Below are positions 28,272 through 33,701 of a stretch of DNA of 64,000 nt, piece by piece. Location of the stretch: the NCBI GenBank assembly GCA_016789405.1, contig JAEUPQ010000034.1:1-64000 (forward strand). Direction: 5' to 3'. This DNA is from Lysobacteraceae bacterium (GTDB lineage: Bacteria; Pseudomonadota; Gammaproteobacteria; Xanthomonadales; Xanthomonadaceae). The notes beneath the pieces are model-generated. The model saw nothing but the letters and a program-made list of their open reading frames with translations. It was not told the DNA's origin and made no database searches. How positions within the stretch are numbered: position 1 is the stretch's first letter; every line of letters starts with the position of its first letter. Both the position numbers and the translations under genes were made by a program.

Positions 28272-30725
<2,454 letters not shown>

Positions 30726-30750
30726 GGCGGTCTCCGGTTCGGGTCCGCGA

Positions 30751-30832
30751 CCAGCGTCGACCCTGCCATCATGGCAAGGTCAAGCGTGGCATGCGACCGC
30801 TTGACCCTGACACAGGGGCAGGGTCGACGCTG
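30751..30832. promoter_or_regulatory. divergent copA/copZ promoter region with two near-identical about 35-bp MerR-type operator/promoter elements in inverted orientation (TTGACC -35 followed by a dyad GACCyTG-N9-CAGGGTC)
   Basis: copZ side (plus strand): cgCTTGACCCTGACACAGGGGCAGGGTCGACGCTG. copA side (minus-strand reading): cgCTTGACCTTGCCATGATGGCAGGGTCGACGCTG. The dyad overlaps the -35 with an extended spacer, as in CueR/MerR-regulated promoters. Coordinates approximate. Confidence 0.5.
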
Positions 30833-30882
30833 CCCTGGCCGGCAAGCGGCCGGCGTCCGTTCACACTCCCAGCGAGGACACC

Positions 30883-31086
30883 ATGAAATTCGACGTCGAA
30901 GGCATGACCTGCGGACACTGCGTCCGCGCCATCACCCGCGCGATCCACACCCTCGACCCCGACGCCCGCGTCGATGTCGATCTCGCCGCAGGCGTCGTGA
31001 CCGTCGAGGGCCAGCTCCTCGCCGACGCCGCCGCCGACGCGATCACGCGCGAGGGCTACACCGTGCGCGGGCGTGGGCCGGGGTGA
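30883..31086 (+). CDS. copZ: CopZ-like heavy-metal-associated (HMA) copper chaperone
   Basis: 67 aa with the GMTCGHC metal-binding motif. GAGGA RBS. Divergent from copA. Confidence 0.8.
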   Translation: MKFDVEGMTCGHCVRAITRAIHTLDPDARVDVDLAAGVVTVEGQLLADAAADAITREGYTVRGRGPG

Positions 31087-31094
31087 GCTTTTTT

Positions 31095-32360
31095 CACAAA
31101 GGGACACCCACTTTCTCTTTTTTAAAGGGACACCCACAAATCAGATTTCCCCGACACCTCATCGGGAACTTCCCCGACATGCCGCTGCCCGGGAATACGC
31201 CACGCTTTCCGCATGGCCCGTCCCCGATCCCAGATCGCACCCCCTGATGCCGCTGGCGCGTATCACTGCGTCCAGCGCTGCGTGCGGCGTGCGTTCCTCT
31301 GCGGCGTCGACCGGTACACCGGGCAGAACTTCGAGCATCGCAAGGCCTGGATCGAATCCCGCATCCGGCTGATCGGCGAATGCTTCGCGGTCGCGATCGA
31401 CGCGTATGCGGTCATGAGCAACCACTTGCACCTCGTGCTGCGCATCGATCCCGCTTCCGCCGCGACATGGAGCGATGAGGACGTCGCGGCGCGATGGGTC
31501 CGACTCTTCCCGCCACGCGAGGATGACGATGCGGCCGTGGAACGCAAACGCCAGCGGCTGCTCTCGGATCCAGAACGCGTCGACCTCGTACGACGACGCC
31601 TCGGCAGTCTGTCATGGCTGATGCGCTGCCTGGTCGAACCCATCGCCCGGCGTGCCAATCGCGAAGATGGCTGCAAGGGACGATTCTGGGAAGGCCGCTA
31701 CAAATGCCAGGCACTCTGCAATGAGCGGGCCCTGCTCGCCGCCATGGCCTATGTCGACCTCAATCCGATCCGCGCGGGCATGGCGGACACGCTCGAAGAC
31801 TCCACGCATACGAGCATCGCCGAACGCATCGCAGCCGCGACCATCGAACCGACTCATCTCTCGCAGCTAATCAGGCCGATCATCGGCAATCTGCCCCCAT
31901 CACTCGCACTGACGACTGCCGACTATCTGCAAATCGTCGATTGGACAGGTCGTCAGCTCGTCCCGGGGAAACGTGGACGCATCACGGGCGATACACCCGC
32001 GATCCTCGAAGTCATCGACACGGACGCGAAACGCTGGGCAGCACGGGTCGGTGCCTTCGGCAGCGGCTGGCATCGCGCTGCTGGTTCCGCGCAGGACCTC
32101 ATCGCGCTTGCGCAGCGGCTCGGGCAGCGGTGGATGAAGGGTCTGCGGCTGGCAATGACACTGGGCTGATAGATCACGGCAGGCGACCTTGGCCCGAAAG
32201 GGAGGATGGCGCCTGCGCGTGGTGTTTTCGGGCGGTGGGGGGATACCGAAAACCCTGGTTAAAAAGGCTTGGAATTCAAACTGCGGATGCCTGACCGAGA
32301 CACCGATGAGGCGATGAGGAATTGTGGGTGTCCCGGTCTTCCCCTCCGGGTGTCCATTCT
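31095..32360 (+). mobile_element. IS-like element (~1.27 kb) carrying a HUH/Y1 (RAYT/IS200-like) transposase-like gene; bounded by duplicated subterminal repeats GGGACACCCAC (two direct copies at the left end, two inverted copies at the right end); markedly lower GC than its surroundings
   Basis: Left end: ...cacaAAGGGACACCCACtttctcttttttAAAGGGACACCCACAAatcag at about 31098-31140. Right end: aattGTGGGTGTCCCggtcttcccctccGGGTGTCCat at about 32324-32355 (reverse complement GGGACACCCACAA, an exact 13-bp match to left copy 2). AT-rich flanks contrast with about 70% GC context. I looked for target-site duplication and did not find one. Confidence 0.4.
31213..32169 (+). CDS. HUH-type Y1 transposase-like protein (REP-associated tyrosine transposase / IS200-like fold) with a ~150-aa C-terminal extension
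   Basis: 318 aa. HUH motif in VMSNHLHLVLRI. Catalytic-Tyr region AMAYVDLNPIRAGMA resembles the RAYT motif YIxxNPVRAGL. Lower GC than neighbours. Sits inside the repeat-bounded element. Confidence 0.55.
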   Translation: MARPRSQIAPPDAAGAYHCVQRCVRRAFLCGVDRYTGQNFEHRKAWIESRIRLIGECFAVAIDAYAVMSNHLHLVLRIDPASAATWSDEDVAARWVRLFPPREDDDAAVERKRQRLLSDPERVDLVRRRLGSLSWLMRCLVEPIARRANREDGCKGRFWEGRYKCQALCNERALLAAMAYVDLNPIRAGMADTLEDSTHTSIAERIAAATIEPTHLSQLIRPIIGNLPPSLALTTADYLQIVDWTGRQLVPGKRGRITGDTPAILEVIDTDAKRWAARVGAFGSGWHRAAGSAQDLIALAQRLGQRWMKGLRLAMTLG

Positions 32361-32465
32361 GGTTATCAACGCACCCAGCAATCAGCAATCAGCAACACAA
32401 AAAATGGCACGGCAAGTGGCAGGCAACCCATTTTCATAACATCTTTCTTCATGTCCGGTCTTTCG

Positions 32466-32939
32466 TCACTGCCATGTCATCAGATCGAGGAGAGTCATAT
32501 CAGACGGACTCAATACCACAATGTAAAAGAGACCATCTCCAGAGAAGTGAACCTCAACCCCTCTTGCAATCTGATCCTCCCCGTACGCGATAAAAAAAGG
32601 CTGCCCCCCCGCCTCGATCAGCTTCACCAGTTCCATTTCGCCCCGTCCTTTCGCGAACTGAGCAACAGCATTCCGACCATCGCCCGCCCACCAAGTGACA
32701 AGATTCCTTAAAACCGCATCATCGCCAATATATGAAACGTAAGGGCCCGCGTACTTGGAGCAATGGCCTGATACCTCCAATGAAATCTGACGATCTCGGC
32801 CGCCTTCAGTTCTTCTGTAGCAAAAGTCAGCCGCTTCGGTGCTCGACACCTTCTCATTCGCCTCGCTCTCCGTTACAGAGCACGCGTTGCAGGCGAGCAT
32901 CAGCGAGGACGTTGCCACGATGAGACATTTTCGCTTCAT
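32466..32939 (-). CDS. low-GC lipoprotein of unknown function (157 aa)
   Basis: MKRKCLIVATSSLMLACNAC signal peptide with lipobox LMLAC. About 50% GC versus about 70% background. The ATG overlaps the stop of the upstream small ORF (ATGA). Confidence 0.5.
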   Translation of the reverse strand: MKRKCLIVATSSLMLACNACSVTESEANEKVSSTEAADFCYRRTEGGRDRQISLEVSGHCSKYAGPYVSYIGDDAVLRNLVTWWAGDGRNAVAQFAKGRGEMELVKLIEAGGQPFFIAYGEDQIARGVEVHFSGDGLFYIVVLSPSDMTLLDLMTWQ

Positions 32940-33214
32940 CGTTTTCCTCGACCATGTCGATCTTTCAATGAGCATCCCAGTCTTCCACAGATACGAGGTT
33001 CGGCAGGGTACGCCCCGTGAGCGTTCCTATTTTCATTGGCTGACTTCGCTTGAGACCATTCGAGCACCCACTCCTCCAACGCCTGCCGGGAGCTGAAGGT
33101 TGCCCCAGCCTCTGGCTGCCCATCCTCTGCGAAGGAGTTCCAGAACTCGACCCAGAACCCGCCGTCTTGATGCCGTGACACTTCGACGAACGCGCAACAG
33201 CTGATGGCGTACAT
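32936..33214 (-). CDS. small hypothetical protein (92 aa), translationally coupled to the low-GC lipoprotein
   Basis: MYAISCCAFVEVSRHQDGGFWVEFWNSFAEDGQPEAGATFSSRQALEEWVLEW... The stop overlaps the lipoprotein ATG. Intermediate GC. No homology recognised. Confidence 0.3.
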   Translation of the reverse strand: MYAISCCAFVEVSRHQDGGFWVEFWNSFAEDGQPEAGATFSSRQALEEWVLEWSQAKSANENRNAHGAYPAEPRICGRLGCSLKDRHGRGKR

Positions 33215-33226
33215 GACCTGAATCTC

Positions 33227-33643
33227 CTACCCCATCCACCCAGCGAACACCCCCAGCGGATGATGCGCGCGGGCGACGGAAACCATGAACAGGAAGGTGG
33301 CGACGGCACCGACGAAGCACAGTGCGCGCGTTCGCTGGGTGCGTGCGCGCTTGAGCGCGAACGTGCCGAGCGCGATGTAGGCCAGGAGCAGCACGATCTT
33401 CGCGGTCAGCCAGCCGTTGGCGAACAAGGCGACCGGCAGGATCGCGGCCAGTGCCAGCGCCGCTGCCAGCAGGACGCTGTCGATGGCGTAGCTGGTGAGG
33501 CGCACCGGCTTGCGCATCGGCCATGACGCGCCGGCAAGCACGCTGGTGCCGCGCGCGAAGAACAGCGCGCCGCTGAGCAGCACGCAGGCGATGTGCAGGG
33601 TGCGCAACTCGGGGTAGTACGCCAGCAGTCCGGTGGGATCCAC
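33227..33643 (-). CDS. SirB2/YchQ-family small inner-membrane protein
   Basis: 4-TM pattern LRTLHIACVLLSGALFFARG ... LTSYAIDSVLLAAALALAA ... KIVLLLAYIALGTFALKRAR, as in E. coli YchQ. The start is uncertain (GTG near 33643, or a TTG a few codons later); the track's longer ORF is rejected. Confidence 0.45.
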   Translation of the reverse strand: MDPTGLLAYYPELRTLHIACVLLSGALFFARGTSVLAGASWPMRKPVRLTSYAIDSVLLAAALALAAILPVALFANGWLTAKIVLLLAYIALGTFALKRARTQRTRALCFVGAVATFLFMVSVARAHHPLGVFAGWMG

Positions 33644-33701
33644 GCTCGAAACCTCGTCAAGTCGATGTCGTCGCCCGCACGCGCGGGCGGCCGGCATGGT
33701 C

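What the first reader, a model, noticed from the sequence alone, without database searches (positions are those of the whole stretch)
31090..32360. IS-like element with duplicated subterminal GGGACACCCAC repeats carrying a HUH/RAYT-like gene
The HUH motif (HLHLV) and the Tyr-NPxRAG motif (YVDLNPIRAGMA) identify a Y1 transposase/RAYT-like protein, but at 318 aa it is about twice the usual RAYT size. The element ends are unusual. Two direct copies of AAAGGGACACCCAC about 26 bp apart sit at the left, and two inverted copies (GTGGGTGTCCC, GGGTGTCC) sit at the right, with AT-rich spacers in an otherwise about 70% GC region. IS200/IS605-type HUH transposases normally lack inverted repeats. This may therefore be a different HUH element class, or a domesticated RAYT with REP-like binding sites. 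It sits immediately downstream of copZ, at the boundary of the copper locus.
Basis: seen in the sequence. Interest (0 to 1): 0.55.

Follow-up and report, generated by a model that had tools for sequence, protein, structure and literature searches.

The report
Tyrosine-transposase gene with inverted-repeat ends
This is an intact copy of a little-studied but already named kind of bacterial mobile element, a "TIRtron": one gene for a long relative of the REP-associated tyrosine transposases, bracketed by conserved inverted repeats. It is ordinary in kind but well preserved.

Summary
AAAGGGACACCCAC occurs twice on the left (31098-31111, 31124-31137). GTGGGTGTCCC (32324-32334) and a partial GGGTGTCC (32348-32355) lie inverted on the right. 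The 11-mer occurs nowhere else in the 64 kb.

The 318-aa product has HUH (H71-L-H73) and YVDLNP (Y180). Its model is closest to E. coli RAYT (4er8). It fails the curated IS200 and RAYT cut-offs. It fits TnpA-Y1 subclass 2.3 of Quentin et al. 2018, and the gene-plus-repeat layout fits the TIRYT/TIRtron of Di Nocera et al. 2013.

In about 50 related Lysobacteraceae loci the same motif sits about 86 nt before the ATG and about 138 nt after the stop. Extra copies are nearly always '+' on the left (113 vs 6) and '-' on the right (138 vs 4). Copies fade out within about 2.5 kb, so this is not a dispersed REP family.

All paralogues are under purifying selection (dN/dS 0.13-0.18). Close copies in different contexts share homology only from repeat to repeat.

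Three near-identical contigs show an empty copZ-sirB site. The window carries a 2,142-bp insert, which is the element plus 896 bp beyond its inner right repeat, 875 bp of it low-GC DNA.

Verdict: new member of a known kind. The mechanism is untested.

The parts
30883..31086 (+). copZ (67 aa, HMA domain), the left neighbour. It is not part of the element.
   Evidence: ORF. Pfam HMA on the identical protein in L081-L083.
31089..33230 (.). The 2,142-bp segment present in the window and absent from the empty allele. It comprises the TIRtron with its end copies plus 875 bp of low-GC DNA. The empty allele has GTCAG in its place. No target-site duplication is visible.
   Evidence: L081, L082 and L083 are 97-99% identical on both sides. 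They join window 31088 to 33231.
31098..31111 (+). Outer left copy of the terminal motif (AAAGGGACACCCAC). It belongs to an imperfect tandem duplication (31089-31111 and 31112-37) that the orthologous locus L001 lacks.
   Evidence: (D15).
31127..31142 (+). Left terminal inverted repeat (GGGACACCCACAAATC). This is the left boundary of homology among paralogues.
   Evidence: I7; paralogue homology begins at 31126-31128. L012/L018 homology starts exactly at GGGACACCCAC. The motif lies about 86 nt before the ATG in about 45 loci.
31147..31179 (+). Two subterminal direct repeats TTCCCCGACA (31147-31156 and 31170-31179), 23 nt apart in the window. They are conserved across paralogues while the spacer between them varies.
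   Evidence: Left-end alignment of 54 loci. Coordinates.
31213..32169 (+). Y1 HUH tyrosine-transposase gene (318 aa). HUH is H71-L-H73 (from nt 31423). The catalytic Tyr is Y180 in YVDLNP (nt 31750). A WE motif lies at residues 159-160.
32192..32231 (+). Conserved motif after the stop codon. The family consensus is GCCCRnnnGGGAGGAT...CGTGGGCGAT. The window has GCCCGAAAGGGAGGATGG...GCGCGTGGTGTTTTCGG. Its role is unknown.
   Evidence: RNAalifold finds only a 3-bp CCC/GGG stem with no covariation. No Rfam match.
32293..32338 (.). Right-end foldback. GACCGAGACACC (32293-32304) pairs with GGTGTCCCGGTC (32327-32338) across a 22-nt loop. It is present only in the window/L001/L002 subgroup.
   Evidence: both strands. 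Sequences of L001 and L002. Absent from other right ends.
32319..32340 (-). Right terminal inverted repeat (GAATTGTGGGTGTCCC) plus the semi-conserved outer flank GGTCTT.
   Evidence: (I7). The motif lies about 138 nt after the stop in related loci.
32348..32355 (-). Outer right partial copy (GGGTGTCC, 8 of 11), 24 nt outside the inner copy.
   Evidence: (8-mer scan).
32356..33230 (.). Low-GC (0.46-0.61) segment inside the indel. It has two minus-strand ORFs with no Pfam match: 32466-32975 (169 aa, lipoprotein-like N-terminus) and 32936-33214 (92 aa). There is no motif copy at its outer edge and no relative in the 80 related loci. Whether it arrived with the element is unknown.
33227..33697 (-). 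sirB-family gene, the right neighbour. In the window its last codon and stop (GGG TAG) differ from the empty allele (GGC TGA).

Best explanation
The locus is an intact TIRtron. It is a single-gene element of about 1.2 kb (31127-32334). The gene encodes a long RAYT-related Y1 HUH enzyme (a TIRYT, TnpA-Y1 subclass 2.3). The element is bounded by a conserved terminal inverted repeat, GGGACACCCACAA / TTGTGGGTGTCCC.

Shown:
- The fold and the catalytic motifs.
- The fixed position and family-wide conservation of the repeat.
- The strict outward orientation of extra end copies.
- Purifying selection on every paralogue tested.
- Homology among close copies limited to the stretch between the repeats.
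- A presence/absence polymorphism at this site.

Inferred, by analogy with IS200/IS605 TnpA and E. coli TnpA-REP:
- The enzyme uses HUH-bound metal and Tyr180 to nick and rejoin single-stranded DNA at or next to the terminal motif. It would leave a 5'-phosphotyrosine link and a free 3'-OH and make no target duplication.
- Because the ends are inverted, the same sequence is presented on the top strand at the left end and on the bottom strand at the right end.
- The extra helical insertion (about residues 80-152) and the C-terminal 130 residues replace hairpin recognition with sequence-specific recognition of the repeat and of the subterminal TTCCCCGACA repeats.
- The oriented clusters of end copies, the short tandem duplications at the termini and the truncated gene remnants are by-products of repeated end-directed cleavage and rejoining, or of insertion next to existing ends.
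- The element moves rarely. It has stayed at this site for a time equivalent to dS of about 0.43.
For: Protein:
- HLH and YVDLNPIRAG motifs.
- NCBIfam REP_Tyr_transpos E = 1e-10 and Pfam Y1_Tnp E = 0.003, both below cut-off.
- AlphaFold model with pLDDT 73. Best PDB match is 4er8_A, E. coli RAYT (E = 7e-4, probability 1.00), followed by ISDra2, IS608 and IS200 transposases.
- Agreement with Table 1 of PMC6006769 for subclass 2.3: about 325 aa, WE, YVDLNP, large insertion, several diverged copies per genome.
- Homologues of 38-47% identity in Alteromonadales, including one with NHYH.

Ends:
- The motif is at a fixed distance in about 45 loci whose proteins are 56-89% identical.
- Variants GGACATCCA, GGGGCCATCCA and TAGACACCCA flank relatives of 40-48% identity.
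- Orientation counts: 113 '+' vs 6 '-' on the left, 138 '-' vs 4 '+' on the right. Density falls to about zero by 2.5-3 kb.
- It fits the TIRYT consensus GGGGWSAS in 7 of 8 positions in the window and 8 of 8 in L001 and L002.

Mobility and turnover:
- Several paralogues per genome.
- 3' gene remnants and inverted left-end fragments in right-hand arrays.
- Tandem full copies in L030 and L034.
- A gene-less repeat doublet in L035.
- Close copies share only repeat-to-repeat homology.
- An empty site in L081-L083.
- One relative lies on a conjugative Shewanella plasmid.

Selection: dN/dS 0.13-0.18.
Against: - No biochemistry exists for any TIRYT. Only two papers in the library use the term. Cleavage at the motif, strand specificity and single-strand preference are all inferred.
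- No conserved hairpin was found at the ends, although hairpins are what the characterised Y1 enzymes recognise.
- The DNA missing from the empty allele (31089-33230) is 934 bp longer than the repeat-to-repeat unit: 38 bp on the left and 896 bp on the right, 875 bp of which is unrelated low-GC DNA. This indel therefore does not demonstrate clean transposition of the unit.
- The orthologous copy in L001 has the same synonymous divergence as copZ (0.425 vs 0.433). No near-identical paralogues were seen; the closest pair is 93% identical. This looks more like a resident gene than an active IS.
- Only 33 of 194 neighbouring end copies share 10 nt or more beyond the motif. Many copies could therefore be maintained binding sites and not duplication debris.
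Confidence: 0.7

Rival explanations
1. The gene encodes a domesticated, essentially immobile Y1 enzyme. It is kept for a host function such as processing single-stranded DNA at replication forks or local genome structuring. The flanking motif copies are its maintained binding or cleavage sites, not transposon ends.
For: - Strong purifying selection on all paralogues (dN/dS 0.13-0.18).
- The orthologue is retained at the same site with the same dS as the neighbouring copZ.
- No near-identical copies.
- Motif copies are conserved while the spacers between them are unrelated.
- RAYTs, the closest characterised relatives, are regarded as domesticated (PMC8266576; PMC5581495).
Against: - Several paralogues per genome in unrelated contexts.
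- Truncated remnants, tandem copies, a copy on a conjugative plasmid and a gene-less repeat doublet.
- Homology between 93-95% identical copies stops at the repeats.
- Presence/absence polymorphism between genomes that are 97-99% identical in the flanks.
- Quentin et al. note short branches in this subclass, suggesting recent spread.
Confidence: 0.2
2. This is a REPtron. The gene is a RAYT, and GGGACACCCAC is the core of a REP family that it spreads through the genome in hundreds of copies.
For: - IMG annotates relatives as 'REP element-mobilizing transposase RayT'.
- The closest solved structure is E. coli RAYT.
- In REPtrons, too, the gene is flanked by repeats in inverted orientation (PMC3333891; PMC8266576).
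- A gene-less inverted doublet exists in L035.
Against: - No GTAG or CGTC tag and no conserved palindrome.
- No copy in the other 62.8 kb of the window.
- About one copy in the roughly 58 kb of related loci lying 2.5-3 kb from the gene.
- The score is below the curated RAYT cut-off (41.7 vs 80 bits).
- The gene is multi-copy, unlike RAYTs.
- Quentin et al. list 'REP: no' for this subclass.
Confidence: 0.05
3. This is a decaying remnant of an IS, and the flanking repeats are chance matches or leftover fragments with no present function.
For: Three matches to an 11-mer in 64 kb are not significant on their own: 16 of 100 shuffles reach three. The outer right copy is degenerate.
Against: - The ORF is full length with intact catalytic motifs.
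- More than 7,900 homologues, nearly all 318 aa.
- dN/dS of about 0.15.
- The motif is conserved at fixed positions across about 45 loci, with extreme orientation bias.
Confidence: 0.02

Closest known systems
TIRYT / TIRtron (Di Nocera, De Gregorio & Rocco 2013, BMC Genomics 14:522; PMC3733652)
   Same: - A RAYT-like Y1 gene flanked by terminal inverted repeats instead of REP hairpins.
- The repeats lie at a roughly constant distance from the coding sequence.
- They share a GGGGWSAS-type motif. Here it is AGGGACAC in the window and GGGGACAC in L001 and L002.
- Repeat copies occur singly, as dimers or in clusters.
- Described in Xanthomonadales (S. maltophilia), among other groups.
   Different: Quentin et al. 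assign the 26 published TIRYTs to subclasses 2.1 (20), 2.2 (4) and 2.5 (2), and none to 2.3. The present protein is the long 2.3 type. I did not find the strict outward orientation of the clusters, the end-anchored micro-duplications or the gene remnants in the parts of the paper I read.
TnpA-Y1 subclass 2.3 (Quentin, Siguier, Chandler & Fichant 2018, BMC Genomics 19:475; PMC6006769)
   Same: - Length (318 vs median 325 aa).
- Y motif YVDLNP and W motif WE.
- A long insertion between HUH and Tyr (109 residues apart).
- A long C-terminal tail.
- Several diverged copies per genome (about 75% identity).
- No REP.
- Homologues in Alteromonadales.
   Different: - The HuH motif is NHLH here, against the published NHYH.
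- The host is Lysobacteraceae, whereas the paper stresses Chromatiales and Alteromonadales.
- The paper reports no REP-like flanking structure and describes no inverted repeats for this subclass. Here a conserved repeat is found, also in a Pseudoalteromonas member.
RAYT / TnpA-REP and REPtrons (Nunvar 2010; Ton-Hoang 2012, PMC3333891; structure 4er8; Corneloup 2021, PMC8266576)
   Same: - Y1 HUH fold, and the Y...NP signature of class 2.
- The gene is bracketed by its cognate repeats in inverted orientation.
- Repeats are often clustered.
   Different: - Twice the length.
- No GTAG tag and no palindromic REP.
- The repeats are local, not genome-wide.
- The gene is multi-copy.
- The score is below the curated RAYT HMM cut-off.
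IS200/IS605 family (IS608, ISDra2)
   Same: - Single-tyrosine HUH catalytic core.
- No target-site duplication visible at the one empty site.
- A single-stranded DNA mechanism is plausible.
   Different: - IS200/IS605 ends are subterminal hairpins in direct orientation, without inverted repeats.
- TnpA is about 130-150 aa, with Y...Q.
- Here the ends are inverted repeats, the Y motif is Y...NP, the IS200 HMM scores 13.5 bits against a cut-off of 55, and there is no tnpB.
Multi-site transposon ends (Tn7 and Mu, from general knowledge)
   Same: Several copies of a short binding motif in direct orientation within each end, inverted between the two ends.
   Different: Those elements use DDE transposases on double-stranded DNA and have fixed numbers of sites. 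Here the enzyme is HUH, and the number and spacing of copies vary between orthologous loci.

Membership tests
TIRYT / TIRtron | The gene encodes a RAYT-like Y1 HUH protein | tested here: met
   HUH and Y...NP motifs. Best fold match is 4er8_A. REP_Tyr_transpos E = 1e-10.
TIRYT / TIRtron | The gene is flanked by terminal inverted repeats and not by GTAG-tagged REP palindromes | tested here: met
   A 16-nt inverted repeat, 94% complementary (I7). No GTAG and no conserved hairpin.
TIRYT / TIRtron | The repeat carries the shared motif GGGGWSAS and lies at a constant distance from the coding sequence | tested here: met
   AGGGACAC in the window (7 of 8) and GGGGACAC in L001 and L002. About 86 nt before the ATG and about 138 nt after the stop in about 45 loci.
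TIRYT / TIRtron | Repeat copies also occur as dimers or clusters | tested here: met
   36 of 74 loci have 2 or more left copies and 48 of 74 have 2 or more right copies. The window has 2 left copies and 1 right copy plus a partial one.
TnpA-Y1 subclass 2.3 | Length about 325 aa with insertions in the core and a two-part C-terminal tail | tested here: met
   318 aa. HUH and Tyr are 109 residues apart. The model has helices at 80-152 between the HUH strand and the strand at 164-168, and the tail is 190-318.
TnpA-Y1 subclass 2.3 | Signature motifs NHYH, WE and YVDLNP | tested here: inconclusive
   WE and YVDLNP are exact. The HuH motif is NHLH here and in all 40 aligned relatives. NHYH is present in the Catenovulum homologue. 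The authors' HMM was not available.
TnpA-Y1 subclass 2.3 | Several diverged copies per genome (mean 3.9, about 75% identity) | tested here: met
   JAHCAU has 4 loci, CP192602 has 2, the window's own MAG has at least 2, and JAHJTB and JAZDGM have 6 each. Paralogue nucleotide identity is 73-93%.
RAYT / REPtron | Passes the curated RAYT model (NF047646, 80 bits) | tested here: not met
   41.7 bits, and only residues 146-196 are matched.
RAYT / REPtron | Cognate repeats are GTAG-tagged palindromes present genome-wide in high copy number | tested here: not met
   No tag or palindrome. No copies in the other 62.8 kb of the window. About one copy in roughly 58 kb of related loci lying 2.5-3 kb from the gene. 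A whole-genome count could not be run.
RAYT / REPtron | Single copy per genome | tested here: not met
   Several paralogues per genome.
IS200/IS605 | TnpA matches the IS200 model, with Y...Q and about 130-150 aa | tested here: not met
   NF033573 scores 13.5 bits against a cut-off of 55. Pfam Y1_Tnp scores 18 bits against 23. The Y motif is Y...NP and the protein is 318 aa.
IS200/IS605 | Subterminal hairpins in direct orientation, no inverted repeats | tested here: not met
   Inverted repeats are present. No family-wide hairpin.
IS200/IS605 | High intragenomic copy number with near-identical copies | tested here: not met
   The closest same-genome pair is 93% identical.
Any ISfinder family | Match to an ISfinder reference element | not testable with these tools
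   ISfinder is not available here. NCBIfam transposase models gave only the two sub-threshold hits.

The most novel reading that the evidence does not exclude
The Y1 enzyme and its strictly oriented arrays of GGGACACCCAC sites might form a site-specific single-strand recombination platform, loosely analogous to an integron. On this reading any segment lying between two like-oriented sites can be excised as a single-stranded circle and re-inserted at another site of the same polarity.

This would explain four things:
- why right-hand arrays contain both right-end units and inverted left-end units, all with the same polarity;
- why array content turns over much faster than the gene;
- why short duplications are anchored at the termini;
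- why unrelated DNA and genes (the 875-bp low-GC segment here, a permease, a glycosyltransferase, an RHS toxin locus) sit next to or between the arrays.
Probability: 0.1. Interest if true: 0.7.

Novelty: new member of a known kind. Interest (0 to 1): 0.35.

Why it matters
TIRtrons are a named but experimentally untouched branch of the HUH Y1 transposases. Nobody has shown what the enzyme cuts, on which strand, or whether the element moves.

This locus and its relatives supply several things an experimenter would need:
- a precisely defined repeat-to-repeat unit (31127-32334);
- a repeat conserved down to about 40% protein identity;
- subterminal direct repeats that are candidate binding sites;
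- an empty site;
- evidence that the ends are hot spots of local duplication.

The comparison also shows that subclass 2.3, listed as having no REP-like flanks, does have conserved inverted-repeat ends. This links it to the TIRYT group. None of this changes the picture of the kind of element. It fills in one family.

Tried and rejected
- Metagenome scan with the 15-mer CCGGGACACCCACAA. It returned 120 stretches. 117 were isolated chance matches in unrelated contigs, often inside genes.
- PDB sequence search. No hit. Only the fold search was informative.
- Rfam on 30700-33400. Only sub-threshold noise.
- Promoter and terminator scan. Nothing above the shuffles.
- A small ORF starting at the conserved GGGAGG...GTG after the stop codon. 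I rejected it by inspecting the sequences. The start codon is not conserved, the stops and lengths are inconsistent, and there is no amino-acid conservation across subgroups.
- A conserved hairpin in the post-stop motif. RNAalifold finds 3 invariant pairs and no covariation.
- A conserved hairpin at the ends. The 12-bp foldback in the right end is limited to the window, L001 and L002. The left-end fold on the minus strand (z = -2.1) depends on a spacer that varies between loci.
- A fixed inner boundary for the right-end array units, that is a second cleavage site. It holds for L002 and L005 but not for L010, L012, L021 or L045.
- The low-GC segment as recurrent cargo. It has no relative in any of the 80 loci or elsewhere in the window.
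- A second gene copy in the window. None.
- A whole-genome motif count.
Full report
**Observation.** AAAGGGACACCCAC lies at 31098-31111 and again at 31124-31137. The inverted GTGGGTGTCCC lies at 32324-32334, and a partial GGGTGTCC at 32348-32355. The inner pair extends to a 16-nt inverted repeat, GGGACACCCACAAATC / GAATTGTGGGTGTCCC (I7, 94%).

With one mismatch allowed, the 11-mer occurs three times in 64 kb, all at this gene. The count alone is not significant: 16 of 100 shuffles reach three. The argument therefore rests on comparison with related loci. The ORF 31213-32169 (+) encodes 318 aa with HLH at 71-73 and YVDLNP at 180.

Two details need correcting. Only the left spacer is AT-rich. 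The marked GC drop (0.46-0.55) lies to the right of the element, at 32356-33230.

**The protein.**
- Pfam Y1_Tnp (18 bits against a cut-off of 23), NCBIfam REP_Tyr_transpos (41.7 against 80) and IS200 (13.5 against 55) are all sub-threshold. There is no PDB sequence hit.
- An AlphaFold model built on 40 relatives has pLDDT 73 and is confident for residues 10-250. Its best PDB match is 4er8_A, E. coli RAYT bound to a REP hairpin (E = 7e-4, probability 1.00). ISDra2, IS608 and IS200 transposases follow. The fold is therefore Y1 HUH, nearest to RAYT.
- The protein database holds more than 7,900 homologues, nearly all exactly 318 aa, mostly from Lysobacteraceae/Xanthomonadales metagenome bins. A 100% match (P0036) places the window in a Xanthomonadaceae MAG, which also holds a 73% paralogue, P0064.
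- Forty relatives share invariant H71, H73 and Y180, and a set of Cys/His residues.

**What the literature calls this.** Quentin et al. 2018 (PMC6006769) divide TnpA-Y1 proteins into 12 subclasses. Subclass 2.3 has these properties:
- median length 325 aa;
- motifs NHYH, WE and YVDLNP;
- a 55-aa insertion between beta3 and alphaC, and a long tail;
- 3.9 copies per genome at about 75% identity;
- 'REP: no', prevalent in Chromatiales and Alteromonadales.

The window protein matches on length, on WE, on YVDLNP, on the insertion (HUH and Tyr are 109 residues apart) and on copy-number behaviour. It differs in having NHLH. A tblastn search of plasmids and chromids finds homologues of 38-47% identity in Shewanella, Pseudoalteromonas, Catenovulum, Vibrio and Aeromonas. 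One of these is on a conjugative plasmid, and the Catenovulum protein has NHYH.

Di Nocera et al. 2013 (PMC3733652) named RAYT-like genes flanked by terminal inverted repeats 'TIRYT', and the units 'TIRtrons'. Many of those repeats share GGGGWSAS, sit at a constant distance from the gene and occur in dimers or clusters. Quentin et al. place the published TIRYTs in subclasses 2.1, 2.2 and 2.5, and none in 2.3. Only these two works use the term in the library. No enzymology exists.

**Comparative anatomy.** Eighty genome loci were fetched.
- In about 45 of them, with proteins 56-89% identical, GGGACACCCAC lies about 86 nt upstream of the ATG on the + strand. Its complement lies about 138 nt downstream of the stop.
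- More distant relatives (40-48%) carry variants: GGACATCCA, GGGGCCATCCA and TAGACACCCA.
- I counted the exact 9-mer GGACACCCA in loci with one full gene. The left side has 113 '+' and 6 '-' copies. The right side has 138 '-' and 4 '+'. Most copies are within 500 nt of the gene, and the count falls to about zero at 2.5-3 kb.
- Half to two-thirds of loci have two or more copies on a side. The median spacing is 53 nt. The window's 'duplicated' repeats are thus a typical, modest instance.
- The left end is conserved as GGGACACCCACAAxTCAGAxTTyCCCGACA-N10-TTCCCCGACAy. That is, two direct TTCCCYGACA repeats about two helical turns apart, at 31147-31156 and 31170-31179 in the window.
- The right end has a conserved motif about 25 nt after the stop, GCCCRnnnGGGAGG...CGTGGGCGA. 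It has no covariation and no consistent ORF. A variable stretch follows, and then (G)AATTGTGGGTGTCCCGGTCTT.
- A 12-bp foldback in the right end is confined to the window, L001 and L002. No hairpin is conserved family-wide.

**Dynamics of the ends.**
- Right-hand arrays in L001 and L002 consist of repeated right-end segments and of inverted left-end fragments. All have the terminal motif pointing outward.
- Several arrays contain 3' remnants of the gene: L002, L005, L018, L019 and L048.
- L030 and L034 hold two full copies in tandem.
- L035 has a gene-less inverted doublet.
- Short locus-specific tandem duplications (8-37 nt) overlap or lie next to the termini in 18 of 48 left ends and 10 of 44 right ends, against 18 of 196 control segments. 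About half of them end or begin within a few nucleotides of GGA|CACCC.
- Only 33 of 194 neighbouring copies share more than the motif. Many copies are therefore old, or are kept for their own sake.
- Between the window and its orthologue L001, the arrays differ completely: 2 against 1 copy on the left, and 1 plus a partial copy against 8 on the right. The genes meanwhile are 87% identical.

**Unit boundaries and mobility.**
- Homology of other paralogues to the window begins at 31126-31128.
- Two copies in one complete genome (L012 and L018, 93% identical) are homologous from exactly GGGACACCCAC onward. L022/L023 and L023/L024 (94-95%) share only the stretch from 4-10 nt outside the left motif to 0-3 nt outside the right motif. 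The conserved or moved unit is therefore repeat to repeat, 31127-32334 here.
- dN/dS is 0.13-0.18 for every pair tested, including same-genome paralogues.
- The window-L001 pair has dS 0.425, equal to copZ (0.433). L001 has the element at the same place after copZ. The copy is therefore old at this site.

**Empty site.** Looking up the exact CopZ protein returned three contigs, L081-L083. They are 97-99% identical to the window on both sides. In them copZ is followed directly by a convergent sirB gene. They join window 31088 to 33231, with GTCAG in between.
- The window therefore carries a 2,142-bp insert, 31089-33230. This is the TIRtron with its outer copies plus 875 bp of low-GC DNA. That DNA holds two ORFs without Pfam matches and has no relatives in the other loci.
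- There is no target duplication, and the sirB stop codon differs between the two alleles.
- The empty allele looks ancestral, because both convergent stop codons are intact. The filled allele is nevertheless old. The most economical reading is a long-lived presence/absence polymorphism, or allele exchange by recombination. This indel does not show a clean transposition of the repeat-to-repeat unit.

**Interpretation.** The locus is a TIRtron whose enzyme belongs to subclass 2.3. I take the enzyme to nick and rejoin single-stranded DNA at its terminal motif through HUH and Tyr180, as its solved relatives do. I take its extra domains to read sequence instead of a hairpin. I take the oriented end clusters, the micro-duplications and the remnants as traces of that activity and of insertion beside existing ends. 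These steps are inferred.

The main rival is a domesticated, immobile enzyme with maintained binding sites. The element's age at this site and the lack of near-identical copies favour that rival. Multi-copy distribution, remnants, plasmid carriage and repeat-bounded homology argue against it. A REP/RAYT system and a dead remnant are both poorly supported.

**Novelty.** Both the kind of element and the protein subclass are published. Three things appear to be additions: the link between subclass 2.3 and a conserved inverted repeat of the TIRYT type, the strict polarity and rapid turnover of the end arrays, and a documented empty site. I rate it a new member of a known kind, of moderate-to-low interest.

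Noticed in passing
window 32356-33230: An 875-bp low-GC (0.46-0.61) segment lies inside the same indel as the element. It has a 169-aa ORF with a lipoprotein-like N-terminus (32466-32975, minus strand) and an overlapping 92-aa ORF (32936-33214, minus strand). Neither has a Pfam match, and there is no relative in the 80 related loci. L001, the orthologous locus, has a different low-GC block with an RHS-repeat gene at the same side of its array.
   Followed up: partly
window 32192-32231 and the same position in about 43 related loci: A strongly conserved motif lies about 25 nt after the stop codon: GCCCRnnnGGGAGGAT...CGTGGGCGAT. It has a variable 4-nt centre. There is no covariation, no consistent ORF and no Rfam match. 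CGTGGGCGA resembles the terminal GTGGGTGTC in the same orientation.
   Followed up: partly
residues 18, 19, 23, 30, 57, 139, 154, 165 and 169 of the protein (window 31213-32169): H18 and eight cysteines are invariant in 40 Lysobacteraceae relatives. H18, C19, C30 and C154 are also kept in Alteromonadales homologues. This suggests a metal (zinc?) site that I have not seen described for Y1 transposases.
   Followed up: no
L035 2370-2530: A gene-less mini-structure. A left terminus (GGACACCCACAAT) and an inverted terminus (TGGGTGTCC) lie 19 nt apart. Two more '-' copies follow in a 38-nt tandem repeat, with flank micro-duplications on both sides. It resembles a REPIN or a MITE.
   Followed up: partly
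L018 4073-5211: An IS3-family IS (HTH_Tnp_1 and rve ORFs) is inserted in the right end of a TIRtron. The 3' 140 nt of the TIRYT gene region is repeated on its far side.
   Followed up: partly
L005 504-1991 and L007 4096-5700: The same amino-acid permease gene is bracketed by solo motif copies in two genomes. One '-' copy lies about 90-110 nt upstream of its likely start codon in both. The TIRYT gene is on opposite sides of the permease in the two genomes.
   Followed up: no
window 30750-30835: The divergent copA-copZ intergenic region holds two imperfect palindromes: ACCCTGCCATCATGGCAAGGT and GACCCTGACACAGGGGCAGGGTC. They look like MerR/CueR-type operators. The Rfam 'mir-614' hit there is spurious (33 bits against a cut-off of 90).
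   Followed up: no
L085 (Pseudoalteromonas shioyasakiensis p1) 1228-1432: A 121-nt tandem duplication carries three motif copies each (TAGACAyCCA). This gives six '+' copies upstream of the TIRYT gene, showing that the end-array habit extends to Alteromonadales.
   Followed up: partly
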